Of a DNA stretch of 64,000 bases, positions 9,218 to 64,000 are shown one piece after another. Positions within the stretch are counted from its first letter, which is position 1. Each line of letters opens with the position of its first letter. The stretch is from Candidatus Woesearchaeota archaeon (GTDB lineage Archaea; Nanobdellota; Nanobdellia; Woesearchaeales; GW2011-AR15): positions 3,306 through 67,305 of the forward strand of contig JAFGRO010000002.1 of NCBI GenBank assembly GCA_016935095.1. The letters are read 5' to 3'. A program made the position numbers and the translations under genes. Below the pieces are notes generated by a model. The model was not told the origin of the DNA. It saw only the letters and a list, made by a program, of their open reading frames with translations, and did no database searches.

Positions 9218-9228
9218 TTATTCCACTC

Positions 9229-11582: not shown

Positions 11583-11592
11583 TTTTTCACCT

Positions 11593-52566: not shown

Positions 52567-53691
52567 ATGTATATTTGCGGAGTAGGAAGGACAAAATTCG
52601 GGAAACTTGAACTGGAATTACCAGAGATTATGACAGAGGCAGTTACAAAAGCATTAATAGATGCAAAATTAAGATTAAAAGATATTGATGCAATATTTAT
52701 TTCAAATAATCTGGCTGGGTTAAACCAGGGGCAATTGCACCTTAACTCTTTGTTAGCAACTATTTTGAAAATTGATATACCTATATTTAGACTAGAATCA
52801 ACATGCGCTTCAGGAGGCGCTACATTTTACAATAGCTTGTTTTCACTTTCTAAATTCAAGAATATACTTGTTTTAGGCGTGGAAAAGATGACAGGCCTTG
52901 CATCAGATTTGCTTTCAACAAATATTGGCACAACATCTGACCTGAACCTGGACCAGGAACAGGGTTTTATTTTTCCTGTTGGCGCAGCTATGATTATTGA
53001 AAGATATGAAAAAAGATTCGGGAATGTGATGGATGACCTTGCTTTAATCTCTTTAAAAAACCATGAAAACGGAAACTTGAATGAGTATGCCCATTTCTAT
53101 GGAAAAGAAGTCACTCTTGAAAAAATCAAGGGTTCAAGGACAATAGTTGGAAAATTGAGATTATATGACTGCTCTCCTGTTTCAGACGGTGCAGTTGCCT
53201 TGGTTGTATCCAAACAAAAAAGAGATAGACGCTCAATAAAGATTCAGGCTTGTGAAATGGCGACAGGACCTATCTCTTTAAGTTTAAATCCCAGAACAAG
53301 CATGCCTGCTGTTAAAACAGCATGTAAAAGAGCATTAAGCTCTGCAGGAATGAAGATTTTAGATATGGACTTAATTGAGATTCATGACGGCTATACAATC
53401 ATTGAATTGATTACAATGGAAGATCTTGGATTATGCAAACCAGGACAAGCAGGTAAACTTATAAGAGAAGGTAAAACAAAACTCAATGGAAAAATTCCTA
53501 TTAATACTGATGGCGGCTTAAAAGCAAACGGCCATCCGATTGGTGCGACCGGATTAGCACAGATTTATGAAATAGTCACACAGTTGAGAGGAGAAGCAGG
53601 CAAAAGACAGGTAAATGCAAAAACAGGTCTAGCACATAATATCGGAGGAATGGTTGGAAGCTGTGTTGTCAGCATATTTAAGAGAGATTAA
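52567..53691 (+). CDS. Thiolase-like protein (archaeal acetyl-CoA acetyltransferase / SCP-x-type thiolase)
   Basis: MYICGVGRTKFGK. Nucleophile-Cys region ESTCASGGATF. C-terminal GHPIGATGL...NIGGMVGSCVV. Followed by a DUF35 partner, as in archaea. Confidence 0.85.
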   Translation: MYICGVGRTKFGKLELELPEIMTEAVTKALIDAKLRLKDIDAIFISNNLAGLNQGQLHLNSLLATILKIDIPIFRLESTCASGGATFYNSLFSLSKFKNILVLGVEKMTGLASDLLSTNIGTTSDLNLDQEQGFIFPVGAAMIIERYEKRFGNVMDDLALISLKNHENGNLNEYAHFYGKEVTLEKIKGSRTIVGKLRLYDCSPVSDGAVALVVSKQKRDRRSIKIQACEMATGPISLSLNPRTSMPAVKTACKRALSSAGMKILDMDLIEIHDGYTIIELITMEDLGLCKPGQAGKLIREGKTKLNGKIPINTDGGLKANGHPIGATGLAQIYEIVTQLRGEAGKRQVNAKTGLAHNIGGMVGSCVVSIFKRD

Positions 53692-53692
53692 A

Positions 53693-53941
53693 ATGCCTTA
53701 TAAATGCAATAAATGCAAAAAACAATGGATGCATAAGATAGGAAAATGCATATTCTGTGATGGAGAGCTGCATGAAATTATCCCTGAAAACCTTGAAGTA
53801 ATGCATTGTATAGAGGTAAATATACCTTCAAAACAACATCCTGAGGTTCCTTATTATGTTTTGCAGGTCAAAGATAAATCAGGCAATATCTATTTCAGAA
53901 AATCCAAAACACAAAAAAAACCAGGTGAAAAATGGGCTTAA
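53693..53941 (+). CDS. DUF35-family Zn-ribbon/OB-fold protein (thiolase partner). Start chosen at MPYKC.
   Basis: CNKCKKQ...CIFCDGE is a four-Cys ribbon, followed by an OB-like segment. Sits immediately after the thiolase. Confidence 0.7.
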   Translation: MPYKCNKCKKQWMHKIGKCIFCDGELHEIIPENLEVMHCIEVNIPSKQHPEVPYYVLQVKDKSGNIYFRKSKTQKKPGEKWA

Positions 53942-54687
53942 TCAATATAGAGACAAACGGAAAAATCTGTACAATAGCTCTTAACAGAGAGCAAAGGCTG
54001 AATGCATTGAACACAGAATTGATTAATGAATTAGCTAATGCAATACAAAATCTAAAGGATGAAAGAATTGTTATTTTTAAAGGAAAGGGAAAAGCATTTG
54101 CAGCAGGTGCTGATGTTAAAGAAATGAGTGAAATGGATAATTCCAAACTAAAGGAATTTTCTAAAAAAGGCCAGCAGCTTTTAAATAGAATTGAAGACCT
54201 TGATAAACTGACAATTGCTGTTATTAATGGATTTTGTTTCGGAGGAGGTCTTGAACTTGCATGTGCATGCGATTTAAGAATTTCTTCAAAAATCTCAAAA
54301 TTCGGTCTTCCTGAATTAAAGCTGGGAGTGATTCCCGGATTCGGCGCTTTTTTCCGTGTGCAGAAATTAATCGGCAATTCCGGATTAAAAAATATTCTTT
54401 TCACAGGAAAAATAATTAATGCTGAAGAGGCAAAGGCAATTGGATTAGTTAATGAAATTGCAGAAGATGCTGAAAAAGAAGCTGAAAAAATAATTAATAA
54501 TTTTTTAGAGAATATATCATTTACTGCTTTTGTAAAAGCAAAGACAGTTCTTAATAAAAATCGGTTAAAGAACAGGAATGAATTATTAGAGTTGGAAAAT
54601 AAAACTTTTTCAGATGTCTGCACGCATAATGATAAAAAAGAAGGGATACGTGCTTTTTTAGAAAAAAGAGAACCAAAATTTGAATGA
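53932..54687 (+). CDS. Enoyl-CoA hydratase/isomerase (crotonase superfamily)
   Basis: ICTIALNREQRLNALN...AFAAGADVKEM...AVINGFCFGGGLELACACDLRI are crotonase oxyanion-hole motifs. Confidence 0.85.
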   Translation: MGLINIETNGKICTIALNREQRLNALNTELINELANAIQNLKDERIVIFKGKGKAFAAGADVKEMSEMDNSKLKEFSKKGQQLLNRIEDLDKLTIAVINGFCFGGGLELACACDLRISSKISKFGLPELKLGVIPGFGAFFRVQKLIGNSGLKNILFTGKIINAEEAKAIGLVNEIAEDAEKEAEKIINNFLENISFTAFVKAKTVLNKNRLKNRNELLELENKTFSDVCTHNDKKEGIRAFLEKREPKFE

Positions 54688-55535
54688 GGAAAAAAATGAA
54701 AGTTGCTGTTATCGGCGCAGGCACAATGGGGCATGGGATTGCCCAGCTATTTGCTATGAATGGCTATGAAGTTTTTTTGGTTGATGTTAATGAAGAAGTA
54801 GTAAGAACAGCTTTGCAAAAAATTGAAAAAAGCCTTGATAAATTCGTAAAAAAACAGATGATTACAGGCAAAGAATCTGTCTTGGAGAAGATTAAAACTT
54901 CTACAAACTTTAATGATGCAAAAGATGTTGATCTTGTTGTTGAAGCAGCATCTGAAAAACAGGAAATAAAAAAAAAGATTTTTGAAAATTTAGACCAGAT
55001 TTGCAAAAAAGAGACAATCCTTGCATCAAATACATCTTCCATACCGATAACTAAACTAGGAAATTTTACAAAAAGGCCTGAAAAAGTTATAGGTTTGCAT
55101 TTTTTCAATCCCCCACAGATAATGAAACTTGTTGAAGTGATTTTAGGAGAGAAAACATCTCCTGAAACAAAAAATAAAGTAATTGAAATTTCAGAAAATC
55201 TTGGGAAAACTCCAGTTACTGTGATAGACAGCCCTGCCTTTGTGACTAGCAGGCTAATCATGATTATGATTAATGAAGCTGTGCAATGCTTATATGAAAA
55301 AATTGCAACAAAAGAAGATATTGATACTGCGATGAAGCTCGGCATGAACCATCCGATGGGTCCTCTTGAGCTGGCGGATTTAGTCGGATTAGACATTGTG
55401 CTTGCAATTGTAAACACAATGTATGAAGGATTTAAAGATGAAAAATATAAGCCAAGCCCTTTATTAGTTGAAAAAGTAGAGAAAGGAGAACTCGGAAGAA
55501 AAACAGGAAAAGGGTTTTATGATTATGAAAAATGA
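54684..55535 (+). CDS. 3-hydroxyacyl-CoA (3-hydroxybutyryl-CoA) dehydrogenase, NAD-binding
   Basis: MKVAVIGAGTMGHGIAQLFAMNGYEV gives the Rossmann fold. The C-terminal 3HCDH_C domain has HFFNP. Confidence 0.9.
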   Translation: MRKKMKVAVIGAGTMGHGIAQLFAMNGYEVFLVDVNEEVVRTALQKIEKSLDKFVKKQMITGKESVLEKIKTSTNFNDAKDVDLVVEAASEKQEIKKKIFENLDQICKKETILASNTSSIPITKLGNFTKRPEKVIGLHFFNPPQIMKLVEVILGEKTSPETKNKVIEISENLGKTPVTVIDSPAFVTSRLIMIMINEAVQCLYEKIATKEDIDTAMKLGMNHPMGPLELADLVGLDIVLAIVNTMYEGFKDEKYKPSPLLVEKVEKGELGRKTGKGFYDYEK

Positions 55536-56101
55536 AACAAGATAAGAAAAAAAATAAAGTATTTATAATTCATGGAATTAACGGGCATCCTAATAAAAAC
55601 TGGTTTCCGTGGCTTAAAGATAAGCTTGAAAAAACAGGGTGCACTGTAGTAGTGCCTGAATTTCCAATAGGTGAAAACCTTTCATTTAGGAATTGGATAA
55701 ATACATTTAATGATTATAAAGAGCTACTTAATAAAGATACTATTGCAATAGGTCATAGTTTAGGTGTTGTTTTTCTTTTGAATATATTAGAACTCTATCA
55801 ACTCAAATGTGCTTTTTTGATTGCTGGATTTATCTCTCCATTAGAAAATGAACCTATTGATACAAGAATTAAGTCATTCATTAAAAAAAAATATAACTGG
55901 AAAAAAATAAAAAAAAATTGTGAAAAATTCTATATTATTCATTCAGATAATGATCCTGTTGTTGACTTGAAAAAAGCATATGAACTTTCTGAATTATTGG
56001 ATACAGAGGTTAAAATAATAAAAAATGTAGGGCATTTTAGCCAGAAAACCGGATTTTTTAGATTTGATTATTTATACAATGAAATAATTAAAATCATTTA
56101 A
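55532..56101 (+). CDS. Alpha/beta-hydrolase-fold serine hydrolase (YdeN/RBBP9-like)
   Basis: VFIIHGINGHPNKNWFPWL then the nucleophile elbow GHSLG. Later HSDNDPVV and GHF fit Asp and His of the triad. Confidence 0.65.
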   Translation: MKQDKKKNKVFIIHGINGHPNKNWFPWLKDKLEKTGCTVVVPEFPIGENLSFRNWINTFNDYKELLNKDTIAIGHSLGVVFLLNILELYQLKCAFLIAGFISPLENEPIDTRIKSFIKKKYNWKKIKKNCEKFYIIHSDNDPVVDLKKAYELSELLDTEVKIIKNVGHFSQKTGFFRFDYLYNEIIKII

Positions 56102-56114
56102 AACAAGATTTAAA

Positions 56115-56309
56115 ATGAAAAAAAAATTTAAGGTACTCATCAACAACAAATGGTGCAAATGCTGCAGCTTGTGCATTAAGTTCTGTCCTGTAAAAAACCT
56201 TACAATGACTGAGCAGGGAGTAAAAGACAGCGGCAAATGCATTGGCTGTAAATTATGCGAGAGATACTGTCCTGATTTTGCGATTGAGGTTCAAGAGATA
56301 AAAAAATGA
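56115..56309 (+). CDS. 2x[4Fe-4S] ferredoxin, delta subunit of a 2-oxoacid:ferredoxin oxidoreductase (PorD/VorD-like)
   Basis: Two CxxCxxCxxxCP motifs (CKCCSLCIKFCP, CIGCKLCERYCP). 64 aa. Upstream of OFOR alpha, beta and gamma subunits. Confidence 0.8.
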   Translation: MKKKFKVLINNKWCKCCSLCIKFCPVKNLTMTEQGVKDSGKCIGCKLCERYCPDFAIEVQEIKK

Positions 56310-57229
56310 CAAACAAAATAGCTATAATGGGTGCTGGTGCAGTTGGAAGTTATTATGGGGCTCTTTTAATTAGAGCAGGATTTGATGTGATTCTTATTGC
56401 AAGAGGTAAACATCTTGAAGCAATGAAAAAAAATGGACTTTCAATTAAGAGCTTTAAAGGAGATTTTCGTGTTGATGTAAATGCTACTGATAATCCTGAA
56501 GAAATCAGTCCTGTAGATTTTATCTTATTTACAGTAAAATCATATGACACAGAAACAGCTATTTCTCAAATAAAACCAATTATTCATGAAAATACACTTG
56601 TTATGTCTTTACAAAATGGTATTGATAATGACGAAAAAATTGAAAAAGTTGTTGGAAAAGGAAAACTTATTCCAGCTTTAACAAAAATAGGTGTATCAAT
56701 ACCTGAACCAGGAATAATAAACCATAGCGCAAAAGGAATAATTATTTTTAATGAATCAAATGGAGAAAAAACTAAAAGAATAAAGCAAATTGAAGATATT
56801 TTTAAGAAGGCAAATATTGAATATAATATACCTAAAGACATTCTACTTGAGAAATGGAAAAAATTTCTATGGAACTCTTCATTTAATGTGATTACTGCAA
56901 TAACAAAAAAAACACTTACTGAATTACTAAATTCTGAAATGAGTAATGAATTAATAAATCGGAGTATGAAAGAGGTTATTGCGATTGCACAAAAAAAGAA
57001 TATTTTATTAGGTCATGAAATTATTCAAACCCAGATTGATTTTTCCAGACAATTGGGGAATTTTAAGACTTCTATGCTTCAAGATATTGAAAAAGGAAAA
57101 AGAATTGAAAGCTGGGCATTAAGCGGTATAATCTCAAAATTAGGAAAAGAATTGGGCATAGATACTCCTGTTAACGAAACATTATATTATTTGTTAAAAA
57201 TAATTGGTCCAAAAGATGAAACTGACTAA
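56306..57229 (+). CDS. 2-dehydropantoate 2-reductase family (PanE/ApbA) NAD(P)H-dependent 2-ketoacid reductase
   Basis: KIAIMGAGAVGSYYGALL gives the Rossmann fold. KTSMLQDIEKGKRIE is the canonical ApbA/PanE active-site motif. Confidence 0.85.
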   Translation: MTNKIAIMGAGAVGSYYGALLIRAGFDVILIARGKHLEAMKKNGLSIKSFKGDFRVDVNATDNPEEISPVDFILFTVKSYDTETAISQIKPIIHENTLVMSLQNGIDNDEKIEKVVGKGKLIPALTKIGVSIPEPGIINHSAKGIIIFNESNGEKTKRIKQIEDIFKKANIEYNIPKDILLEKWKKFLWNSSFNVITAITKKTLTELLNSEMSNELINRSMKEVIAIAQKKNILLGHEIIQTQIDFSRQLGNFKTSMLQDIEKGKRIESWALSGIISKLGKELGIDTPVNETLYYLLKIIGPKDETD

Positions 57230-58250
57230 TGGTAATACTGCAATTGTGCTCGGAGCATTAAAAGCCGGATGCAGGCTTTTTGCAGGTTATCCTATAACAC
57301 CTGCTTCCAGTATTTTAGAAGAAATATCTGCAACTAAAATCAAGGTAATGCAGATGGAAGACGAAATTGCAAGCATTAACTGTGCAATCGGTGCAAGTCT
57401 TGCAGGAGTAAAATCAATGACCGCTACATCCGGCCCGGGATTTTCACTGATGCAGGAAGCAATAGGATATTCAAACATGATTGAAGTTCCGCTTGTTATT
57501 GTTGATGTGCAGAGGGTTGGTCCCGCAACAGGAATGCCTACAAAGCCATCTCAGGGAGATATTATGCAATCCCGTTTTGGAAGCCACGGGGATTATTGCC
57601 CTCTGGTATTTTATCCGAATTCTGTTGAAGAGCTCTATAAGTACACGATTAAGGCATTTAATAATGCTGAAATAGGAGAAATGCCTGTTGTACTGTTAAG
57701 TGATGCTTTTCTTGCTAACCTGTATGAAACAGTAAATCTGGATGACAATATTGAAATAAAAAAAAGGAAATTAAAGCCACTGGGAAAAGCAGCAAGACAC
57801 ATAACAGGGCTTGCACACCAGAGAAATTCTCCCAAGCCGCAGAGCCCGAAAGAGTACAGGAGCTTTATCGACAGGATTTTTAAAAAAACTTATGTTACTG
57901 CCAAAGAAAATAATGATTATGAATTTTCAGGTAAAAAAAACTCAGATACATTAATAGTTAGTTATGGATGTGTTTCAAGGTTTTTATCTGATTTAAAAAA
58001 TAAATATGCCTTTTTCCGCCCGATAAGGATATGGCCTTTCCTGAAAAAAGAGCTTGGACTGATTGCCAAAAATTACAAAAAAGTGGTTGTTGTTGAGATG
58101 AACAACGGCCAGTACAGGCATGAAGTTGAAAGAGTGATTAGAAAACGGCTGTTCTTTTTCAGGGTGCTTGGCGGAGAAATTGATATTAAAAAAATAGAAA
58201 AAAATATTGAAAAATTAAAATGCAAGACTACCTCACTTTACTCAAATTAA
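57204..58250 (+). CDS. 2-oxoacid:ferredoxin oxidoreductase, alpha subunit (PorA/VorA/KorA family), operon 1
   Basis: LFAGYPITPASSILEEIS...SMTATSGPGFSLMQEAIGY resemble POR domain I motifs. Confidence 0.85.
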   Translation: MVQKMKLTNGNTAIVLGALKAGCRLFAGYPITPASSILEEISATKIKVMQMEDEIASINCAIGASLAGVKSMTATSGPGFSLMQEAIGYSNMIEVPLVIVDVQRVGPATGMPTKPSQGDIMQSRFGSHGDYCPLVFYPNSVEELYKYTIKAFNNAEIGEMPVVLLSDAFLANLYETVNLDDNIEIKKRKLKPLGKAARHITGLAHQRNSPKPQSPKEYRSFIDRIFKKTYVTAKENNDYEFSGKKNSDTLIVSYGCVSRFLSDLKNKYAFFRPIRIWPFLKKELGLIAKNYKKVVVVEMNNGQYRHEVERVIRKRLFFFRVLGGEIDIKKIEKNIEKLKCKTTSLYSN

Positions 58251-58954
58251 AAAAACTGCCTACAACATGGTGTCCCGGTTGCGGCAACGGCCTAGTTGTT
58301 AAAGCATTAGCACAGGCTATGCATGAATTAAAGATGAATAAGCATAATACAGTTATTGTTTCGGGCATCGGATGCAATGGAAGAAGCGCCGGTTATTTTA
58401 ATTTGGAGTCAATCCACACATTGCATGGCAGGGCGATTCCTGTTGCTGAAGGCATTAAAACTGCTAATCCAAAACTTAATGTTATTGTGCTTAGCGGGGA
58501 CGGTGATTTACTTGCAATCGGAGGCAATCACCTGCTTCATGCATCAAGAAGAAAAACAAACATAACAGTTATCTGTGTAAATAACAGGATTTACGGGATG
58601 ACAGGCGGTCAGGCATCTCCAACCACACCTCTGAATGCAAAAACAGCATCCACTCCTTTCGGGAATGAGTTTCCAGAGATAGATGTACAGCCGGTTGTGC
58701 TTGCGAATAATAATCTTTATGCAAGATCAACTGTATATCATTTTGATCATCTGAAACAGGTAATAAAAAAGGCTCTTTTAGATAAAGAGTTTTCATTTGT
58801 TGAAGTGATGAGTAACTGTTATCAGGGATACGGCAAAAAAGCAGGATATATGCACCCTTATGAGATAATCATGGACTTTAAAAAAAATTATAATATGAGC
58901 AGGAGCCATAAAAAAGAGCTTAAAAAAAATGAGATTGGTTTTGTGAAAAAATGA
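58220..58954 (+). CDS. 2-oxoacid:ferredoxin oxidoreductase, beta subunit (TPP-binding), operon 1
   Basis: WCPGCGNG Cys-motif. TPP fold GDGDLLAIGGNH. Confidence 0.9.
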   Translation: MQDYLTLLKLKKLPTTWCPGCGNGLVVKALAQAMHELKMNKHNTVIVSGIGCNGRSAGYFNLESIHTLHGRAIPVAEGIKTANPKLNVIVLSGDGDLLAIGGNHLLHASRRKTNITVICVNNRIYGMTGGQASPTTPLNAKTASTPFGNEFPEIDVQPVVLANNNLYARSTVYHFDHLKQVIKKALLDKEFSFVEVMSNCYQGYGKKAGYMHPYEIIMDFKKNYNMSRSHKKELKKNEIGFVKK

Positions 58955-59403
58955 AAATAAAGCTGATAGGAAATGCAGGGCAGGGAATTAAAACAATCTC
59001 TCTTATACTATCTAAAATATTTACTGAAAACGGAAAATATGTCTGCTTTAGTCTTAATTACGGCACAAATGTGAGATCCGGCATTATAACATCAGATATA
59101 ATTTACTCGGATGAAAAAATTGAAAATCCCAAAATCATAACTCCTGATATTGCAGTTATACTTTCAAATGCCAATAAAACGGATTTTAAAAACTCAGAAG
59201 TCATAAGTTATGAAGAAACCGATTTTGAAAAAATATCTTTTAACGCTTTTAAAAAGGCGAGATTTGCAAACATGATTGCAATGGGAAAATTATTAAGGCT
59301 GTTAAAATTTGATTTTAAAAAAATCAATTTCAAAGATAAATTGCCGGAAAAATTCCAGGAAAAGAACATAGAAGCAATAAAACTAGGGTATGATTTAAAA
59401 TGA
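58951..59403 (+). CDS. 2-oxoacid:ferredoxin oxidoreductase, gamma subunit, operon 1
   Basis: MKIKLIGNAGQGIKTISLILSKIF is the gamma-subunit G-x-G-G-Q-G motif. Confidence 0.8.
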   Translation: MKIKLIGNAGQGIKTISLILSKIFTENGKYVCFSLNYGTNVRSGIITSDIIYSDEKIENPKIITPDIAVILSNANKTDFKNSEVISYEETDFEKISFNAFKKARFANMIAMGKLLRLLKFDFKKINFKDKLPEKFQEKNIEAIKLGYDLK

Positions 59404-59594
59404 TTAAAATAAACAAAGAATATTGTAAAGGATGTAAGCTGTGCATTGAAAACTGCCCGAAAAAATGCATTTCATTATCAAAAGAAGTAAATGACAAAGG
59501 TTATTTTTATGCAGTCTATAAAGAAGGATGCACCAGCTGTAAATTCTGTGCTTTGATATGCCCTGATGCATGCATTGAGGTTATTAAAGAATGA
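59400..59594 (+). CDS. 2x[4Fe-4S] ferredoxin delta subunit, operon 2
   Basis: CKGCKLCIENCP and CTSCKFCALICP. 64 aa. Confidence 0.8.
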   Translation: MIKINKEYCKGCKLCIENCPKKCISLSKEVNDKGYFYAVYKEGCTSCKFCALICPDACIEVIKE

Positions 59595-60712
59595 AAAATA
59601 TAACAAATTATTATTTACCAACAAGAATTGTATTTGGGAATAATTCAATTGAGAGAATTCCTGAACTAGTTACAGAATTTAATCCAAAAAACATTGCTTT
59701 GGTTACTGGAAAGACAGCAATGAGAAAATTTGGTGTGACAGACAGAGTAATTAAATTATTAGATAGATATAATGTAGTAGTTTTTGACAAAGTAGAAGAA
59801 AATCCGTGTTGTGAGACAGTAGATTTATGTGTGGAGTTCTTGAAACAAAATAATTGTGATATTGTTATTGGATTAGGAGGAGGGTCTGCAATGGATGTTG
59901 CTAAGTCAGCTGCAGTCCTTGTAAATAATCCCGGGGAAACATTGGATTATCACATGCAGAATCAAATGATAAAAAAAACAGGATTACCTTTTATAGCAAT
60001 TACAACCACATCAGGAACTGCATCTGAAGTAACTAAATTTGCAGTGCTTACCAATGCTTCATTGAAATTAAAAAAGGCACTGGTCCATGATTTTCTTTAT
60101 CCGGAAATTGCACTTATTGACCCACTATTAACAAAAACAATGAATAAAGATATTACTTATTCAACTGGATTAGATGCATTAAGCCATGCAGTTGAAGCAT
60201 ACTGGTCAAAAAATACAAATCCAATCTCTCAGATTCATTCTCTAGAATCAATAAAGCTTGTGTTTGAAAACCTAAAAGGAGCATGTGAAACTCCTGATGA
60301 TTTAAAATACAGAGAAGGAATGGCAAAAGCAAGCCTTTTTGCGGGTCTTTCATTCAGCAATGCAGGTACAAATGTATTGCATGCAATATCTTATCCTCTT
60401 ACAGTGCATTATAATGTTTTGCACGGGATCGCATGTGCAGCTGCAATGAAGGAATTTTTCAAAGTTAATAAAGATGCAATAGACTTACAAAGAATAATTA
60501 AAACAACAAACTCACCAGATTTTGATGATTTTCTTAACAAATTAGATGAGTTGCTTAATATAAATGAAAAATTAGATTTATCAAAGTTTGGCTTAAAAAA
60601 AGAAGATATGAATGATTTTGTTGAAAAAGCATATCTTCCAAGTAAATTTAAAAATAATCCTGTAGAAATATCAAAAGAACAATTAAAAAAAATATTATCT
60701 GAAATCTTATAA
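59591..60712 (+). CDS. Iron-containing (group III) alcohol dehydrogenase
   Basis: GLGGGSAMDVAKSAA is the Fe-ADH signature. Metal-binding His region HAISYPLTVHYNVLHG. Confidence 0.85.
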   Translation: MKNITNYYLPTRIVFGNNSIERIPELVTEFNPKNIALVTGKTAMRKFGVTDRVIKLLDRYNVVVFDKVEENPCCETVDLCVEFLKQNNCDIVIGLGGGSAMDVAKSAAVLVNNPGETLDYHMQNQMIKKTGLPFIAITTTSGTASEVTKFAVLTNASLKLKKALVHDFLYPEIALIDPLLTKTMNKDITYSTGLDALSHAVEAYWSKNTNPISQIHSLESIKLVFENLKGACETPDDLKYREGMAKASLFAGLSFSNAGTNVLHAISYPLTVHYNVLHGIACAAAMKEFFKVNKDAIDLQRIIKTTNSPDFDDFLNKLDELLNINEKLDLSKFGLKKEDMNDFVEKAYLPSKFKNNPVEISKEQLKKILSEIL

Positions 60713-60715
60713 AAA

Positions 60716-61765
60716 ATGACAAATAAAAAAGTCTTGAAAAAAGGAAACCATGTAATTGGTGCAGCAGCAATTGAAGCCGGCTGTGAATTTTATGCAGGCT
60801 ATCCTATAACCCCACAGAATGAATTAACTGAGTACATGGCAAAGCACATGGTCCTGAATAAAAGGCCGTTTGTTCAGGCAGAGTCAGAAGTCTCTGCAAT
60901 TAACATGGTTTTTGGTGCAAGTGCAGCAGGGGCACGTGCAATGACTTCCTCTTCCTCGCCTGGAATCAGCTTAAAGCAGGAAGGAATTTCATATATTGCA
61001 GGAGCAAACCTTCCATGTGTAATTGTAAATATGGTGCGAGGAGGCCCCGGTTTAGGCAATATTGCGGGTGCTCAATCAGACTATTTCCAGGCTACTCGCG
61101 GCGGAGGTCATGGTGATTACAGGTTAATAGTTCTTGGTCCGAATTCTGTGCAGGAGCTTTATGATTATACTATGAAATCTTTTGATCTTGCAGATAAATA
61201 CAGAATTCCTGTAATGATTTTAGGAGACGGCTACCTGGGCCAGATGATGGAATCCCTTACATTGCATAAATATGCTAAACCAAAAAATTTGCCGAAAAAA
61301 ACCTGGGCACTGACAGGATGTAAAGGAAGGAATCCCAATGTTATTAAAACACTTTACTTAACACCTGAAGATGCTCTTGAAAAGCATAATCTTGAATTAA
61401 ATGTAAAATATGAAAAAATCAAAAAAGAGCTGCAGCTATTTGAGACAATCAATGTGCAGAATGCCGAGCTTGTTATAGTAGCATATGGCACAGTTTCAAG
61501 AGTTGTTAAGAATGTTATTGAATCTTCTGATAAAAAAATAGGTTTATTCAGGCCGATAAGCCTATGGCCATTTCCTGAAAACGCTTTGAGAAATTTAAAA
61601 TGCAAAAAATTCCTAGTAGTGGAGATGAGCCTTGGCCAGATGGTTGAGGATGTTAAATTGTCTTTGTTTGGAACAGATGCAAGTGTTGATTTAATTGCGA
61701 GACCCGGCGGAATGATTCCAACCGAAGAAGAGATACATAAGAAGATTAAATTGATGCTGAAATGA
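60716..61765 (+). CDS. 2-oxoacid:ferredoxin oxidoreductase alpha subunit, operon 2
   Basis: FYAGYPITPQNELTEYM...AMTSSSSPGISLKQEGISY. Confidence 0.85.
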   Translation: MTNKKVLKKGNHVIGAAAIEAGCEFYAGYPITPQNELTEYMAKHMVLNKRPFVQAESEVSAINMVFGASAAGARAMTSSSSPGISLKQEGISYIAGANLPCVIVNMVRGGPGLGNIAGAQSDYFQATRGGGHGDYRLIVLGPNSVQELYDYTMKSFDLADKYRIPVMILGDGYLGQMMESLTLHKYAKPKNLPKKTWALTGCKGRNPNVIKTLYLTPEDALEKHNLELNVKYEKIKKELQLFETINVQNAELVIVAYGTVSRVVKNVIESSDKKIGLFRPISLWPFPENALRNLKCKKFLVVEMSLGQMVEDVKLSLFGTDASVDLIARPGGMIPTEEEIHKKIKLMLK

Positions 61766-62010
61766 AAAAAAATTTATTGTTTGCCGAAGTTATTGGATGG
61801 TATGGGGCATTTGCAATACTTATAGCATATGCGCTGAATACTTTGTTGATTGTTACTGCGGATTCATTAGTTTATCAACTGCTTAATTTAACAGGATCAT
61901 TTGGGTTGCTTGCAATTGCTTTTGTGAAAAAGGTTTATCAATCAGTTTTAATTAACGGGATATGGATTCTTATTGCGGTTATCGGGCTTATTAATATAAT
62001 TATAAATTAA
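61762..62010 (+). CDS. Small hydrophobic protein (82 aa, about 3 TM) embedded in the OFOR operon
   Basis: Start overlaps the alpha-subunit stop (ATGA). The beta subunit starts 14 nt after its stop. Entirely hydrophobic sequence. Confidence 0.45.
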   Translation: MKKNLLFAEVIGWYGAFAILIAYALNTLLIVTADSLVYQLLNLTGSFGLLAIAFVKKVYQSVLINGIWILIAVIGLINIIIN

Positions 62011-62024
62011 TAAATGATGTTAAA

Positions 62025-62765
62025 ATGAAACTCTATCAAAGACCAAAATCATTGAAAAATGTGCACACTCACTTTTGCCCGGGATGCGGGCATGGAATTA
62101 TCCATAAATTAATCTGCGAGGTAGTTGATGAACTTAAGATAAGAGAGAAAATGATTGCAATTGCTCCTGTTGGCTGCGGTGTTTTTGGCTATAACTACTG
62201 GGATTTTGATGTAAGTGAGGCAGCTCACGGAAGAACACCAGCTGTTGCAACCGGAATCAAAAGAGTGCATCCTGATAAAATTGTATTGAGTTACCAGGGA
62301 GATGGAGACTTAGCTGCTATCGGCACTGCAGAGATAATCCATGCTGCTAACCGAGGAGAAAATATAACTGTTATTTTTGTGAATAATGCAATCTATGGAA
62401 TGACAGGCGGCCAGATGGCTCCCACAACACTAATGGGCCAGAAATCAACAACAACGCCTTTTGGCAGGGAAAAGAATTTAGGATATCCTATAAAAGTATG
62501 TGAATTGCTTGCTCAGCTAGAGGGCACAACTTATTTAGAGAGAACATCTGTTAATTCTCCATTAAATGTGATGAAAACAAGAAAAGCAATAAAAAAAGCA
62601 TTTGAGCTGCAGATTACAAATAAAGGTTTTTCTTTGATTGAAGTACTTTCAATGTGTCCTACAAACTGGAAAAAAGATGCAATTGAATCATGTAACTTTG
62701 TTAAAGAACAGATGATGAAAATATTTCCATTAGGCGTAATAAAGGATACGACAAAGACAAAATGA
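62025..62765 (+). CDS. 2-oxoacid:ferredoxin oxidoreductase beta subunit (TPP-binding), operon 2
   Basis: FCPGCGHG. TPP fold GDGDLAAIGTAE. Confidence 0.9.
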   Translation: MKLYQRPKSLKNVHTHFCPGCGHGIIHKLICEVVDELKIREKMIAIAPVGCGVFGYNYWDFDVSEAAHGRTPAVATGIKRVHPDKIVLSYQGDGDLAAIGTAEIIHAANRGENITVIFVNNAIYGMTGGQMAPTTLMGQKSTTTPFGREKNLGYPIKVCELLAQLEGTTYLERTSVNSPLNVMKTRKAIKKAFELQITNKGFSLIEVLSMCPTNWKKDAIESCNFVKEQMMKIFPLGVIKDTTKTK

Positions 62766-63301
62766 AAACACAAATAATTGTTGCAGGTTTTGGAGGCCAG
62801 GGTGTTTTAACTCTCGGAGTTATATTAGCTAATGCTGCTGTTTTAGAAGATAAAAATGCAACATGGCTTCCCAGTTATGGCCCTGAGATGAGAGGCGGAA
62901 CTGCAAACTGCCATGTAATAATCTCTGAAGAAGATATTGGAAGCGCTGTTATCTCCCAGCCGGATATATTAATTGCATTTAATCATCCCAGCTTGGAGAA
63001 GTTCCTTCCAAGATTAAAAAAAAACGGGCTTTTGATAATAAATTCTTCTTTAATTAAAGAAGAGATTATCAGGAAAGATATTAAATTAGTTTCTTTGCCT
63101 TTGGTTGAGCTTGCTGCAAAAATTCAGAATCAAAAAACAATAAATATTATTGCCATGGGCGCGTTGCTTGAACTAACTGAATTAGTAAAAACTTCTTCAG
63201 TTGTTGATTCAATAAAACAAAATTTCAAGGACAAACAGGATATAATTGAATTAAATAAAAAAGCTCTTGAACTGGGTAGAGAACATGTCAAAAAAAATTA
63301 G
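62762..63301 (+). CDS. 2-oxoacid:ferredoxin oxidoreductase gamma subunit, operon 2
   Basis: IIVAGFGGQGVLTLGVILANAA. Confidence 0.8.
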   Translation: MKTQIIVAGFGGQGVLTLGVILANAAVLEDKNATWLPSYGPEMRGGTANCHVIISEEDIGSAVISQPDILIAFNHPSLEKFLPRLKKNGLLIINSSLIKEEIIRKDIKLVSLPLVELAAKIQNQKTINIIAMGALLELTELVKTSSVVDSIKQNFKDKQDIIELNKKALELGREHVKKN

Positions 63302-63677
63302 GATTCTAATTGCTAAGCCAGGGCTGGATGGCCATGACAGGGGCGCAAAAGTAATGGCAAATGCATTCCGTGATTCTGGTGTAGAGGTAATTTATACTGG
63401 GTTAAGGCAGACACCTTTGCAAATAGTAAATGCAGCTATCCAGGAAGATGTCTTGGTTATTGGGTTGAGTGTTCTTTCAGGGGCGCATATGCACCTCTGC
63501 AAAGAAGTGCTTAAATTACTGAAAGAAAAAAAAGCTTTTGATATTAATGTTGTTGTCGGCGGGATAATCCCTGAGAAAGATATCAAAGAGTTGAAAAGGA
63601 TCGGAATTAAATCAGTGTTTGGTCCTGGGACATTTATGAAAGATGCTGTTGAATTTGTTAAAAAGTTGGTAAAATGA
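63267..63677 (+). CDS. Methylmalonyl-CoA mutase small subunit / B12-binding domain (MCM C-terminal domain homolog). Likely true start at MSKK (63285).
   Basis: IRILIAKPGLDGHDRGAKVMANAFRDSGVEVIYTGLRQTP contains the DxHxxG B12-binding signature. Confidence 0.85.
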   Translation: MNWVENMSKKIRILIAKPGLDGHDRGAKVMANAFRDSGVEVIYTGLRQTPLQIVNAAIQEDVLVIGLSVLSGAHMHLCKEVLKLLKEKKAFDINVVVGGIIPEKDIKELKRIGIKSVFGPGTFMKDAVEFVKKLVK

Positions 63678-64000
63678 ACTCTCGGGAAATTGCAAAGACA
63701 ATCTCAAAAATAGAGAATAATGAGCTTAAAGTAAACTCAACTAGAAATTATAATGCTCATGTAATTGGAATTACAGGTCCTCTTGGGGTGGGAAAATCAA
63801 CTCTTGTTTTTCAGATTGCAAAACATTATGCAGATGCAGGAATTAAGCTTGGAATTATATTAAATGACCCTTCCAGCGAAAACGGAGGCTCTTTTTTAGG
63901 AGACAGAATCAGGATGCAGAAACTTTGCGAGTATGATAATGTTTTTATAAGGAGCCTTTCTGCAAAAGATTCCGGAGGAGTTGCTAAAATCTCAGGAGAA
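63674..64000 (+). CDS. meaB: MeaB/ArgK-family G-protein (methylmalonyl-CoA mutase chaperone), N-terminal 109 aa; continues beyond the window end
   Basis: Manual translation from the ATG at 63674, which overlaps the upstream stop as ATGA: MNSREIAKT...HVIGITGPLGVGKSTLVFQIAKHY...GIILNDPSS. P-loop as in MeaB. Confidence 0.8.
   Translation, partial: MNSREIAKTISKIENNELKVNSTRNYNAHVIGITGPLGVGKSTLVFQIAKHYADAGIKLGIILNDPSSENGGSFLGDRIRMQKLCEYDNVFIRSLSAKDSGGVAKISGE

What the first reader, a model, noticed from the sequence alone, without database searches (positions are those of the whole stretch)
56115..63301. Two tandem OFOR operons in delta-X-alpha-beta-gamma order, each with an NAD(P) oxidoreductase inserted between delta and alpha
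Both 2-oxoacid:ferredoxin oxidoreductase gene sets share the same unusual order. The ferredoxin (delta) comes first, then an unrelated redox enzyme, then alpha, beta, gamma. In operon 1 the inserted enzyme is a PanE/ApbA-family 2-ketoacid reductase. In operon 2 it is an Fe-alcohol dehydrogenase. Junctions are 4-nt overlaps, so the inserted enzymes are translationally coupled to the OFOR subunits.

This suggests two coupled 2-hydroxyacid/aldehyde-to-2-oxoacid-to-acyl-CoA modules, one per substrate class (for example branched-chain or aromatic 2-oxoacids). The architecture is conserved in duplicate, and I do not recognise it from model archaea.
Basis: partly seen in the sequence, partly recalled or inferred. 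Interest (0 to 1): 0.65.

Follow-up and report, generated by a model that had tools for sequence, protein, structure and literature searches.

The report
Dehydrogenase genes inserted into archaeal oxidoreductase operon
Two ordinary four-subunit 2-oxoacid:ferredoxin oxidoreductase gene sets sit in one long fermentation operon of a Woesearchaeota archaeon, and the reductase and alcohol dehydrogenase genes wedged into them are insertions found only in this organism, not a conserved new enzyme module.

Summary
The genes are real and mostly as described: delta1, a KPR-family reductase, alpha1, beta1, gamma1, delta2, an Fe-ADH, alpha2, beta2 and gamma2.

The two sets are not separate operons. They are part of one tightly packed string of at least 18 genes, from a thiolase at 52567 to MeaB at the window end.

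The delta-alpha-beta-gamma order is not unusual. Most of the ~90 related loci fetched have it.

The KPR and ADH genes are not conserved there:
- Five close relatives (alpha1 73-80% identical) have delta1 directly overlapping alpha1.
- Neither relative with a readable delta2|alpha2 junction has an ADH there.
- The nearest relative aligns collinearly at 70-78% nucleotide identity, with clean gene-sized gaps exactly where the hydrolase, KPR, ADH and 82-aa genes lie.
- KPR, ADH and the hydrolase are compositional outliers (GC3 0.15-0.19; other window genes 0.29 ± 0.04).
- Relatives carry unrelated genes at the same junctions (HD-domain protein, SEC-C protein, group II intron).
- Eight homologue contexts show no OFOR linkage.

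Best reading: lineage-specific insertions, probably co-expressed NAD(P)H carbonyl reductases. The KPR lacks both asparagines that bind ketopantoate's hydroxyl, so it looks like a general 2-oxoacid reductase. Metabolic coupling is possible but unproven. Interest is low to moderate.

The parts
52567..53691 (+). Thiolase; first gene of the long gene string (backbone)
   Evidence: Pfam Thiolase_N and Thiolase_C_1. Ortholog 79% identical in L007.
53654..53941 (+). Small Zn-ribbon protein, called 'DUF35-like' here by position after the thiolase (backbone)
   Evidence: Only a weak Pfam Zn_ribbon hit below cut-off. The DUF35 label is my reading, not a Pfam result. Ortholog in L007, L105 and L026.
53932..54687 (+). 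Enoyl-CoA hydratase (crotonase) (backbone)
   Evidence: Pfam ECH_1, 4e-59. Present in L007, L105 and the P0216 contig.
54684..55535 (+). 3-hydroxyacyl-CoA dehydrogenase (backbone)
   Evidence: Pfam 3HCDH_N + 3HCDH. In relatives it is directly followed by delta1.
55532..56101 (+). Serine hydrolase (alpha/beta fold); window-specific insertion between the 3-hydroxyacyl-CoA dehydrogenase and delta1
   Evidence: Pfam Ser_hydrolase PF06821. Absent from L007, L105, L106 and the P0216 contig. GC3 0.189.
56115..56309 (+). OFOR set 1 delta subunit (2x[4Fe-4S] ferredoxin, 64 aa)
   Evidence: Fer4 families. Best NCBIfam hit is OorD, below cut-off. Two CxxCxxCxxxCP motifs in the translation.
56306..57229 (+). 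KPR/ApbA-family NAD(P)H 2-oxoacid reductase; window-specific insertion at the delta1|alpha1 junction
   Evidence: Pfam ApbA + ApbA_C; TIGR00745 274 bits. Absent in all five close relatives. GC3 0.149, below all 49 other window genes. N194 to L and N241 to F.
57216..58250 (+). OFOR set 1 alpha subunit (Kor/Oor-like)
   Evidence: POR_N + PFOR_II. Best NCBIfam PRK08659, 357 bits, below cut-off 411. Best PDB hits 8ys5 (KOR alpha) and 1yd7.
58220..58954 (+). OFOR set 1 beta subunit (ThDP-binding)
   Evidence: TPP_enzyme_C. Best NCBIfam hits are KorB-type, below cut-offs.
58951..59403 (+). OFOR set 1 gamma subunit (short, 150 aa)
   Evidence: Pfam POR in two stretches. Orthologs of 148-154 aa in L007, L105, L106 and the P0216 contig.
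59400..59594 (+). OFOR set 2 delta subunit (2x[4Fe-4S], 64 aa)
   Evidence: Fer4_21 and Fer4. Best NCBIfam hit OGOR_delta, below cut-off. Overlaps gamma1 by 4 nt.
59591..60712 (+). Iron-containing alcohol dehydrogenase; window-specific insertion at the delta2|alpha2 junction
   Evidence: Pfam Fe-ADH + ADH_Fe_C. No NCBIfam equivalog cut-off reached. Closest database homologue only 47% identical. Absent in L007; a different 186-aa gene sits at this junction in the P0216 contig. GC3 0.184.
60716..61765 (+). OFOR set 2 alpha subunit (VorB family)
   Evidence: NCBIfam NF005507 VorB, 497.8 bits, above cut-off 399. POR_N + PFOR_II. PDB best hits 1yd7 and 8ys5.
61762..62010 (+).
   Evidence: ORF. Precomputed PF26604 CBU_0592; no hit in the local Pfam copy. 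Absent in L007.
62025..62765 (+). OFOR set 2 beta subunit (ThDP-binding)
   Evidence: TPP_enzyme_C. 86% identical ortholog in L007.
62762..63301 (+). OFOR set 2 gamma subunit
   Evidence: Pfam POR, 2e-41. TIGR02175 94 bits, above cut-off 81.
63285..63677 (+). B12-binding small subunit of an acyl-CoA mutase (backbone)
   Evidence: Pfam B12-binding. Follows gamma2 also in L007 and the P0216 contig.
63680..64000 (+). N-terminus of a MeaB/ArgK-type GTPase, cut by the window end (identified by eye)
   Evidence: Frame-3 translation shows a P-loop (GPLGVGKST). Aligns at DNA level to the L007 299-aa ORF at 11233-12132. No family search was run on it.

Best explanation
The region is the middle of one long co-directional gene string of a Woesearchaeota (DPANN) archaeon. 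The string runs: thiolase, DUF35-like protein, crotonase, 3-hydroxyacyl-CoA dehydrogenase, OFOR set 1 (delta-alpha-beta-gamma, Kor/Oor-like), OFOR set 2 (delta-alpha-beta-gamma, VorB family), B12 mutase small subunit, MeaB. This backbone is shared with related Woesearchaeota. It encodes 2-oxoacid to acyl-CoA conversion together with C4 acyl-CoA interconversion.

In this organism alone, four extra genes have been inserted exactly at gene junctions:
- a serine hydrolase (3-hydroxyacyl-CoA dehydrogenase|delta1);
- a KPR-family reductase (delta1|alpha1);
- an Fe-alcohol dehydrogenase (delta2|alpha2);
- an 82-aa membrane protein (alpha2|beta2).

Shown: the inserts are lineage-specific, and three of them are compositionally foreign. 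Equivalent junctions in relatives carry other, unrelated genes.

Inferred: because they overlap or abut their neighbours, KPR and ADH are co-transcribed and probably translationally coupled with the OFOR genes. They most likely act as soluble NAD(P)H-dependent carbonyl reductases. The KPR-like enzyme would reduce a 2-oxoacid other than ketopantoate to a 2-hydroxyacid. The ADH would reduce an aldehyde to an alcohol. Such an aldehyde could be the known non-oxidative decarboxylation by-product of OFORs. Both would then be fermentative redox valves or detoxifiers that ride on the operon's expression. They are not subunits, and they are not a conserved pathway module.
For: Gene content and packing.

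Synteny.
- L007 (alpha1 79% identical) has the same backbone without the hydrolase, KPR, ADH or 82-aa ORF.
- blastn places the breakpoints at gene boundaries. Window-only segments are 55534-56105, 56310-57210, 59607-60714 and 61735-62003. L007-only segments are 8026-10078 and 10960-11266.
- The P0216 contig (80%), L105 (73%) and L106/L107 (76%) all have the dehydrogenase followed by delta1 and then alpha1 directly.
- Outgroups also have uninterrupted D-A-B-G: Brocadiales L008, L009 and L011 for set 1, and L026 and L025 for set 2. Woesearchaeota L010 has delta directly before alpha. L018 shows A-B-G with no delta detected.

Composition: GC3 is 0.149 for KPR, 0.184 for ADH and 0.189 for the hydrolase. 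The 49 other window genes average 0.292 (sd 0.043, minimum 0.185), and the OFOR alpha, beta and gamma genes are 0.26-0.34.

Junction plasticity.
- P0216 contig: D2-[186 aa]-A2-[139 aa]-B2-[HD domain]-G2.
- L007: B2-[155 aa + SEC-C protein]-G2.
- L026: A2-[crotonase]-B2.
- More distant (apparently bacterial) relatives: a group II intron RT, a nucleotidyltransferase, a PMT_2 glycosyltransferase, and PurN + FolC at D|A or A|B junctions.

KPR chemistry.
- Catalytic residues are conserved, but N194 is Leu and N241 is Phe.
- These two Asn bind the 4-OH of 4-hydroxy-2-oxoacids in E. coli KPR (PMC10127515).
- The T. kodakarensis KPR keeps both.
- PaKPR2 is inactive on ketopantoate, active on several alpha-keto acids, and has Tyr263 at that position (bioRxiv 10.1101/2024.01.05.573888).
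- Other family members are 2-ketoisovalerate or D-2-hydroxyacid dehydrogenases (PMC3478992).

ADH logic.
- OFORs can release aldehydes that ADHs reduce (PMC4058850 and PMC4030962, abstracts listed).
- A 46%-identical homologue sits directly after a ThDP-dependent decarboxylase in a phosphonate cluster.
Against: - Nothing here shows transcription, translation or activity.
- Substrates of both OFOR sets and of both reductases are unassigned. Only alpha2 reaches a curated family cut-off, and that model is a subfamily model.
- The same junctions accept obviously unrelated cargo, so the inserts could be mere passengers.
- Low GC3 could reflect weak codon adaptation rather than foreign origin.
- Loss in several relatives instead of gain here is less parsimonious but not excluded.
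- The KPR residue argument rests on alignment to three reference enzymes, not on a structure.
Confidence: 0.62

Rival explanations
1. Each set is a dedicated, selected module in which the inserted dehydrogenase oxidises a 2-hydroxyacid (KPR) or an alcohol/aldehyde (ADH) to feed the adjacent OFOR, one module per substrate class.
For: - Both inserts are NAD(P)-dependent carbonyl oxidoreductases, and both sit at the same relative position, delta|alpha.
- Their upstream junctions are tight 4-nt overlaps.
- The KPR lacks the ketopantoate-specific Asn pair.
- alpha2 falls in the VorB family.
Against: - The arrangement is not conserved in any of five close relatives or about 90 further loci.
- KPR and ADH homologues elsewhere are never OFOR-linked.
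- The two sets are old paralogues, not a duplicated unit.
- An ADH product (aldehyde or alcohol) is not an OFOR substrate.
- KPR-family enzymes characterised so far work in the reductive direction.
- Two further inserts in the same operon, the hydrolase and the membrane peptide, do not fit the model.
Confidence: 0.15
2. Pure hitch-hiking. The hydrolase, KPR, ADH and 82-aa genes are horizontally acquired passengers that landed in a strongly expressed operon. They use its promoter but have no metabolic connection to the OFORs.
For: - Relatives carry unrelated cargo at the same junctions: HD-domain protein, SEC-C protein, group II intron, nucleotidyltransferase, PurN/FolC, glycosyltransferase.
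- The three larger inserts are compositional outliers.
- Insertion of new genes behind native promoters is a described route of operon growth (PMC1480536).
Against: - Three of the four inserts are enzymes whose plausible substrates (acyl esters/thioesters, 2-oxoacids, aldehydes) are chemically adjacent to the operon's pathway. That would be a coincidence for random cargo.
- Start/stop overlaps have been maintained.
Confidence: 0.3
3. The KPR is a genuine ketopantoate reductase for pantothenate/CoA synthesis. It would be co-expressed with CoA-dependent enzymes, possibly using 2-oxoisovalerate made reductively by a VOR-type OFOR as the pathway precursor.
For: - TIGR00745 apbA_panE subfamily score of 274 bits is above the cut-off of 141, and NCBI annotates the protein as 2-dehydopantoate 2-reductase.
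- All catalytic residues are present.
- Every enzyme of the backbone uses CoA esters.
Against: - N194 and N241, which bind ketopantoate's hydroxyl, are Leu and Phe, whereas E. coli and T. kodakarensis KPRs keep both Asn.
- No NCBIfam equivalog cut-off is reached.
- No pan or CoA-synthesis genes occur in the 64-kb window.
- The gene is absent from the same operon in five relatives.
Confidence: 0.08

Closest known systems
Four-subunit 2-oxoacid:acceptor oxidoreductases with delta-alpha-beta-gamma gene order (Helicobacter pylori OorDABC type; archaeal KorDABG; 'VorB' family NF005507)
   Same: - Subunit set and domain content match: alpha POR_N + PFOR_II, beta ThDP-binding, gamma POR, delta 2x[4Fe-4S].
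- The delta-first gene order matches once the inserts are removed.
- The best NCBIfam and PDB matches are Kor/Oor/VorB-type proteins.
- The same order is seen at 61 delta|alpha junctions of related loci, 52 of them with no more than 200 nt between the genes.
- The H. pylori operon name is from my own knowledge.
   Different: - Here unrelated genes interrupt the delta|alpha junction in both sets and the alpha|beta junction in set 2.
- gamma1 is short (150 aa).
- Only alpha2 reaches a curated family cut-off.
- Substrate is unknown.
KPR-family 2-oxoacid reductases that are not ketopantoate reductases (P. aeruginosa PaKPR2; Lactococcus/Enterococcus 'PanE' D-2-hydroxyacid dehydrogenases; fungal 2-ketoisovalerate reductase KivR)
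   Same: - The ApbA fold and the catalytic Lys/Asn/Glu/Ser set are shared.
- There is an aromatic residue three positions before the conserved Ser (window Phe253, PaKPR2 Tyr263) in place of E. coli Asn241.
   Different: - Sequence similarity to PaKPR2 is modest (97 bits). The best PDB hits are uncharacterised structural-genomics KPRs 3hwr and 3hn2.
- No activity data exist for this subfamily.
- Its closest homologues often sit next to a 2-Hacid_dh gene rather than an OFOR.
OFOR-derived aldehyde plus alcohol dehydrogenase route in fermentative archaea (bifunctional POR/pyruvate decarboxylase of Thermococcus/Pyrococcus with ADH)
   Same: A ThDP/CoA-dependent OFOR and an ADH occur in the same fermentative anaerobe, which offers a chemical rationale for an aldehyde-reducing partner (PMC4058850 and PMC4030962).
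   Different: - I know of no report that the Thermococcales ADH gene lies inside the OFOR operon; this was not checked here.
- The T. guaymasensis ADH is, from my own knowledge, a Zn enzyme; the abstract does not state its type.
- No decarboxylase side activity is known for Kor/VorB-type enzymes of DPANN archaea.
Operon growth by insertion of newly acquired genes behind a native promoter (Price, Arkin & Alm 2006, 'The Life-Cycle of Operons')
   Same: Lineage-specific, compositionally odd genes are found inside an otherwise conserved operon and are expressed from its promoter without any need for functional relatedness (PMC1480536).
   Different: That study found internal insertions to be much rarer than additions at operon ends. 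Here four internal junctions are occupied in one genome, and three, one and one in relatives (P0216 contig, L007, L026).

Membership tests
Four-subunit OorDABC/KorDABG-type 2-oxoacid:ferredoxin oxidoreductase | Alpha subunit with POR_N and PFOR_II domains; beta subunit with a ThDP-binding domain | tested here: met
   Pfam hits for alpha1, alpha2, beta1 and beta2.
Four-subunit OorDABC/KorDABG-type 2-oxoacid:ferredoxin oxidoreductase | Separate gamma subunit (POR domain) and a small delta ferredoxin with two [4Fe-4S] motifs | tested here: met
   Pfam POR for gamma1 (two stretches, short) and gamma2. Two CxxCxxCxxxCP motifs in each delta translation; Fer4 families.
Four-subunit OorDABC/KorDABG-type 2-oxoacid:ferredoxin oxidoreductase | Contiguous delta-alpha-beta-gamma operon | tested here: not met
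   Order is kept but contiguity is broken by KPR, ADH and the 82-aa ORF. It is contiguous for set 1 in all close relatives, and for set 2 at every junction but beta2|gamma2 in L007.
Four-subunit OorDABC/KorDABG-type 2-oxoacid:ferredoxin oxidoreductase | CoA- and ferredoxin-dependent oxidative decarboxylation of a 2-oxoacid | not testable with these tools
   Needs anaerobic enzyme assays.
VorB family (NCBIfam NF005507, 3-methyl-2-oxobutanoate dehydrogenase subunit VorB) | Score above the curated cut-off of 399 bits | tested here: met
   alpha2 scores 497.8 bits. alpha1 scores 231 bits and does not meet it. The model is of 'subfamily' type, so it does not fix the substrate.
Ketopantoate reductase PanE/ApbA (EC 1.1.1.169) | ApbA N- and C-terminal domains; TIGR00745 subfamily cut-off | tested here: met
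   Pfam 149.7 and 108 bits. TIGR00745 274.5 bits, above 141.35.
Ketopantoate reductase PanE/ApbA (EC 1.1.1.169) | Catalytic and carboxylate-binding residues (E. coli N98, K176, N180, N184, S244, E256) | tested here: met
   Window N104, K186, N190, N194, S256 and E268 align to them. The E. coli sequence was verified against PDB 1yjq. Residue roles from PMC3478992 and PMC10127515.
Ketopantoate reductase PanE/ApbA (EC 1.1.1.169) | Asn194 and Asn241, which hydrogen-bond the substrate's 4-hydroxyl | tested here: not met
   Leu and Phe253 in the window protein, and non-Asn (mostly hydrophobic) residues across its closest homologues. Both Asn are kept in T. kodakarensis KPR 5hws. Roles.
Ketopantoate reductase PanE/ApbA (EC 1.1.1.169) | Any NCBIfam equivalog cut-off; genomic association with pantothenate/CoA genes | tested here: not met
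   The best equivalog, NF005091, scores 216.9 bits against a cut-off of 252. No pan genes were recognised by eye among the gene calls of the window. The rest of the genome was not available.
Iron-containing (group III) alcohol dehydrogenase | Fe-ADH N- and C-terminal domains, the GGGS dinucleotide motif, and the Asp/His/His/His metal ligands | tested here: met
   Pfam 171 and 131.5 bits. The motifs GGGSAMD, D-x3-H (GLDALSH) and H-x13-H are visible in the translation. The ligand assignment by spacing is from my knowledge of FucO.
Iron-containing (group III) alcohol dehydrogenase | Membership of a functionally defined subfamily (ErcA, phosphonoacetaldehyde reductase, FucO, 4-hydroxybutyrate DH, and others) | tested here: not met
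   All equivalog scores are far below cut-off: ErcA 248 against 550, Phn_Fe-ADH 232 against 424, lactaldehyde reductase 227 against 523, 4-hydroxybutyrate DH 193 against 500.
NAD-linked five-subunit OFOR (phenylglyoxylate dehydrogenase PadEFGHI type) | An extra flavin/Fe-S subunit that passes electrons from the OFOR core to NAD+ | tested here: not met
   KPR and Fe-ADH carry no flavin or Fe-S domain. Pad-type NCBIfam scores are 37-61 bits against cut-offs of 300-700.
   Absent from 5 close relatives, 13 genome loci and 80 metagenome loci, and from 8 KPR/ADH homologue contexts.

The most novel reading that the evidence does not exclude
In this Woesearchaeota lineage the OFOR operon may act as a recurrent landing pad. 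Different genomes carry different foreign genes at the subunit junctions: four in the window, three in the P0216 contig, and one occupied subunit junction (two ORFs) in L007 and one in L026. The window organism may have used it to assemble a small fermentative overflow branch from three AT-rich acquisitions. These are a hydrolase acting as acyl-CoA thioesterase, a KPR-like 2-oxoacid reductase, and an Fe-ADH. The delta gene's conserved C-terminal ...AIEV codons (ATTGAGGTT) supply a Shine-Dalgarno-like GAGGT to whatever gene lands behind it, which might explain why the delta|alpha junction is favoured.
Probability: 0.15. Interest if true: 0.5.

Novelty: new member of a known kind. Interest (0 to 1): 0.27.

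Why it matters
The finding does not reveal a new kind of oxidoreductase system. Both OFOR sets, the KPR-family reductase and the Fe-ADH are ordinary members of known families, and the arrangement is confined to one organism in the data searched here.

It is useful in three ways:
- As a caution: tight packing and start/stop overlaps inside an operon do not by themselves show a conserved functional module.
- As a small case study of how compact DPANN genomes add genes by inserting them at junctions of an expressed operon.
- As a pointer to a KPR subfamily that lacks the ketopantoate-binding asparagines and is probably mis-annotated as 2-dehydropantoate 2-reductase across many archaeal and bacterial MAGs.

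Tried and rejected
- **Recent tandem duplication of a delta-X-alpha-beta-gamma unit.** Rejected. The paralogous subunits are only 29-41% identical, the two X genes are unrelated, and the sets fall in different NCBIfam families.
- **Assembly chimera.** Rejected. An independent Logan contig is 100% identical over 7,097 nt.
- **Mobile-element signature around the inserts.** Direct and inverted repeat search of 55400-63700 found only short AT-rich chance matches and the expected paralogue similarity. No flanking repeats were found.
- **Internal promoters or terminators.** The sigma-70-type scan gave 43 sites against 46.9 expected, and few terminator-like sites on the + strand. This is uninformative for an archaeon.
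- **KPR or ADH as an NAD-linking OFOR subunit (Pad-type).** Rejected for lack of flavin or Fe-S domains.
- **Linkage through the reductases' own relatives.** Five KPR-homologue contexts and three ADH-homologue contexts had no OFOR genes nearby.
- **Assigning POR/VOR/KOR/IOR type.** Only partly possible. Both alphas score far better against Kor/Oor/VorB models and PDB 8ys5/1yd7 than against PorA/VorA/IOR models. Only alpha2 passes a cut-off, and no substrate can be inferred.
- **Looking for pan or CoA genes or amino-acid catabolism elsewhere in the window.** The other 52 kb is mostly glycan and nucleotide-sugar biosynthesis.
- **Sequence of the 186-aa and 139-aa inserts of the P0216 contig.** It could not be retrieved, because no DNA is held for that sample.

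Full report
**What is in the sequence**

The window comes from a Candidatus Woesearchaeota (DPANN archaea) metagenome-assembled genome. The KPR, ADH and alpha1 proteins are each 100% identical to NCBI entries with that name on a 75,770-nt contig.

- delta1 (56115-56309, two CxxCxxCxxxCP motifs)
- a PanE/ApbA-family reductase (56306-57229)
- alpha1 (ATG at 57216, to 58250)
- beta1 (58220-58954)
- a short gamma1 (58951-59403)
- delta2 (59400-59594)
- an iron-containing ADH (59591-60712)
- alpha2 (60716-61765)
- beta2 (62025-62765)
- gamma2 (62762-63301)

An independent Logan assembly reproduces 7,097 nt of this arrangement at 100% identity.

Four details differ from the finding:
- An 82-aa hydrophobic ORF (61762-62010) lies between alpha2 and beta2.
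- Only the delta/insert junctions are 4-nt overlaps. KPR/alpha1 overlap by 14 nt, and ADH/alpha2 are 3 nt apart.
- gamma1 overlaps delta2 by 4 nt.
- The whole run from a thiolase at 52567 is one uninterrupted co-directional string. It passes through a DUF35-like protein, crotonase, 3-hydroxyacyl-CoA dehydrogenase and a serine hydrolase, then both OFOR sets, then a B12-binding mutase subunit and the start of a MeaB GTPase.

So there are not two operons. There is one long cluster with a 334-nt upstream intergenic region after a divergent ribosomal protein S2 gene.

**What kind of OFORs these are**

Both alpha subunits score best against Kor/Oor-type and VorB-type models. They score poorly against PorA, VorA (Thermococcales type), IOR and oxalate oxidoreductase models. 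Their best solved relatives are a 2-oxoglutarate synthase alpha (8ys5) and the P. furiosus 2-ketoacid:ferredoxin oxidoreductase alpha (1yd7).

alpha2 passes the curated cut-off of NCBIfam NF005507 'VorB' (497.8 against 399 bits). alpha1 passes none (best 357 against 411).

The two sets are old paralogues, with 37% (alpha), 38% (beta), 29% (gamma) and 41% (delta) identity. A delta-X-alpha-beta-gamma unit was therefore not duplicated.

The delta-first order is the norm for this branch. Among 80 metagenome loci with alpha2 relatives (56-66% identical), 61 delta|alpha junctions could be scored. Of these, 52 have no more than 200 nt between the genes. The same order holds in Brocadiales relatives of set 1 and in all close Woesearchaeota relatives. 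Substrate specificity cannot be read from these data.

**The decisive comparison**

Five close relatives of set 1 were found (alpha1 73-80% identical):
- L007, Woesearchaeota Bin_274
- a JGI contig carrying P0216
- L105, from a 278-kb contig that also keeps the upstream S2 gene
- L106 and L107

In every one, the 3-hydroxyacyl-CoA dehydrogenase is followed directly by delta1, and delta1 is followed directly by alpha1 (a 4-nt overlap in the four loci with DNA; 14 nt in the P0216 gene table). There is no hydrolase and no KPR.

L007 carries the entire backbone, through both OFOR sets to the B12 subunit and MeaB, without KPR, ADH or the 82-aa ORF. A blastn comparison shows collinear segments at 70-78% nucleotide identity. 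These are interrupted by clean gene-sized gaps exactly at gene boundaries:
- Window-only: 55534-56105 (hydrolase), 56310-57210 (KPR), 59607-60714 (ADH) and 61735-62003 (82-aa ORF).
- L007-only: 8026-10078 (a 155-aa ORF and a 518-aa SEC-C-motif protein between beta2 and gamma2) and 10960-11266 (a DUF711 fragment).

Outgroups lack inserts at the delta|alpha junction. For set 1 these are the Brocadiales loci and Woesearchaeota L010 (L018 shows A-B-G with no delta detected). For set 2 they are L025 and L026. Gain in the window lineage is therefore the parsimonious reading.

**Independent support from composition**

Third-position GC is 0.149 for KPR, 0.184 for ADH and 0.189 for the hydrolase. The 49 other genes of the window average 0.292 (sd 0.043, minimum 0.185). 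The OFOR alpha, beta and gamma genes lie at 0.26-0.34.

No close orthologue of either insert exists in the 5.8-billion-protein collection. The next best KPR is 54% identical and the next best ADH is 47% identical. alpha1, by contrast, has five relatives at 73-80%.

**The junctions accept arbitrary cargo**

- The P0216 contig has delta2-[186 aa, no Pfam]-alpha2-[139 aa, no Pfam]-beta2-[HD-domain protein]-gamma2.
- L026 has a crotonase between alpha2 and beta2.
- Among the more distant relatives, apparently mostly bacterial, delta|alpha junctions hold several unrelated genes: a group II intron reverse transcriptase/maturase (L084), a nucleotidyltransferase (L097), a PMT_2 glycosyltransferase (L078) and an unknown protein (L103).
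- One alpha|beta junction in that set holds PurN + FolC (L092).

None of these is a KPR or an ADH.

Conversely, the closest homologues of the window KPR were checked in five contexts, and those of the ADH in three contexts. None is next to OFOR genes. Three KPR homologues sit beside a D-2-hydroxyacid dehydrogenase family gene. One ADH homologue sits directly after a ThDP-dependent phosphonopyruvate-decarboxylase-like gene in a PEP-mutase cluster.

**What the inserted enzymes probably do**

*The KPR-family protein.* It keeps the residues that polarise the 2-oxo group and hold the carboxylate: E. coli N98, K176, N180, N184, S244 and E256 correspond to window N104, K186, N190, N194, S256 and E268. 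This comes, with the E. coli sequence verified against PDB 1yjq and residue roles.

The two asparagines that hydrogen-bond the 4-hydroxyl of ketopantoate-like substrates (N194, N241) are Leu and Phe253, and they are likewise not Asn (mostly hydrophobic) in its closest homologues. The biochemically established T. kodakarensis KPR keeps both. P. aeruginosa KPR2 is inactive on ketopantoate but reduces several alpha-keto acids, and it has Tyr263 at the N241 position. Other family members are D-2-hydroxyacid or 2-ketoisovalerate reductases.

I therefore read this protein as a general NAD(P)H 2-oxoacid reductase rather than a pantothenate-pathway enzyme. I hold this with moderate confidence.

*The ADH.* It has the GGGS motif and a D-x3-H / H-x13-H spacing consistent with the Fe-ADH metal site. 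It fits no functionally defined subfamily.

OFORs of Thermococcales release aldehydes by CoA-dependent non-oxidative decarboxylation, and ADHs reduce these (PMC4058850 and PMC4030962). One stand-alone Fe-ADH even reduces acetyl-CoA to ethanol with NADPH (PMC7806712). These give a chemical rationale for an ADH next to an OFOR, but they are analogies, not tests.

**Most likely mechanism**

*Shown.* A conserved backbone operon exists. Four lineage-specific insertions sit at its gene junctions, and three of them are compositional outliers.

*Inferred.* The inserts are transcribed from the operon's promoter. Given the overlaps, they are translated in step with the OFOR subunits.

They work as soluble carbonyl reductases that dispose of NAD(P)H or remove reactive by-products. 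The KPR-like enzyme would convert a 2-oxoacid to a 2-hydroxyacid, and the ADH would convert an aldehyde (or possibly an acyl-CoA) to an alcohol. The hydrolase could be a thioesterase.

They cannot be electron-transfer subunits, because they have no flavin or Fe-S cofactor domain.

The rival that they are mere passengers is nearly as good. It is favoured by the unrelated cargo seen in relatives.

A speculative reading of the backbone was not tested. In it, a VorB-type OFOR yields isobutyryl-CoA, a B12 mutase with MeaB isomerises it to butyryl-CoA, and beta-oxidation enzymes and the thiolase yield acetyl-CoA.

**Comparison with the known, and novelty**

The OFORs work like, and by domain content and family scores belong to, the four-subunit Oor/Kor/VorB-type enzymes. 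The only departure is operon contiguity.

Insertion of newly acquired genes behind native promoters is a described route of operon evolution. Price et al. found internal insertions much rarer than terminal additions (PMC1480536). The density of internal insertions in this Woesearchaeota operon is therefore mildly noteworthy.

Nothing here is a new kind of system. I rate it a new member of known kinds, with interest of about 0.27. The most novel reading not excluded is that the operon is a recurrent landing pad from which this organism assembled an overflow branch. I give that about 15% probability.

Noticed in passing
window 61762-62010: An 82-aa, strongly hydrophobic ORF lies between alpha2 and beta2. 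It overlaps alpha2 by 4 nt and is absent from L007. The precomputed table assigns it to PF26604 (CBU_0592), but the local Pfam copy gave no hit. Its function and its reason for being inside an OFOR operon are unknown.
   Followed up: partly
window 55532-56101: A serine hydrolase (PF06821, alpha/beta fold) is inserted between the 3-hydroxyacyl-CoA dehydrogenase and delta1. It is absent in all close relatives and has GC3 0.189. It could be an acyl-CoA thioesterase, but this was not tested.
   Followed up: partly
L007 8012-9941 and 10980-11243; JGI 3300042731 contig of P0216 (gene table): Relatives carry different inserted genes at the subunit junctions of OFOR set 2. L007 has a 155-aa ORF and a 518-aa SEC-C-motif protein between beta2 and gamma2, and a DUF711 fragment after the B12 subunit. 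The P0216 contig has a 186-aa ORF, a 139-aa ORF and an HD-domain protein at its three junctions. The junctions look like an insertion hot spot.
   Followed up: partly
L084 6408-7700; L097 3583-3903; L078 4555-6411; L092 4708-6731: In apparently bacterial relatives of set 2, the delta|alpha junction can hold a group II intron RT/maturase, a nucleotidyltransferase or a PMT_2 glycosyltransferase. One alpha|beta junction holds PurN + FolC.
   Followed up: yes
window 56283-56305 and 59568-59590; L007 about 3780-3809: Both delta genes have ...IEV codons (ATTGAGGTT) near their 3' ends, which places a GAGGT Shine-Dalgarno-like motif 9 nt before the ADH start and 15 nt before the KPR start. In L007 the same motif precedes alpha1. 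Whatever gene lands behind delta inherits this signal, while alpha1 and alpha2 in the window have no such motif upstream.
   Followed up: no
L002 5930-8871; L109 901-3799; L003 1499-3300: The closest homologues of the window KPR (about 50% identical, archaeal MAGs) are repeatedly adjacent to a D-isomer 2-hydroxyacid dehydrogenase family gene. In two cases the string is radical SAM (DUF8061), KPR, 2-Hacid_dh. This subfamily lacks the ketopantoate-binding Asn pair and may be mis-annotated as 2-dehydropantoate 2-reductase.
   Followed up: partly
L021 3129-7110: A 46%-identical homologue of the window ADH lies in an archaeal PEP mutase, ThDP decarboxylase, Fe-ADH phosphonate-type cluster, next to nucleotidyltransferase and LicD genes. 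This suggests phosphonate decoration of surface glycans in a DPANN-like archaeon.
   Followed up: no
L008 5545-6540; L009 9780-10763; L011 9781-10764: In the Brocadiales/Planctomycetota relatives of set 1, the ORF matching gamma1 is 327-331 aa, about twice the usual length. This suggests a fusion with another domain.
   Followed up: no
window 1-51600: The remaining 52 kb of the window is dominated by surface-glycan genes, identified by eye from translations. They include NeuB-like sialic/legionaminic acid synthases, CMP-sugar and nucleotidyl transferases, many glycosyltransferases, radical SAM proteins, an asparagine synthase-like gene and large membrane oligosaccharyl-transferase-like proteins.
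   Followed up: no
window 56301-56321 and 60711-60731: The starts of KPR and alpha2 share a 21-nt stretch at 90% identity (AAAAAATGACAAAYAAAA.AG; both proteins begin MTNK). This is probably chance in AT-rich, Lys-rich sequence.
   Followed up: no
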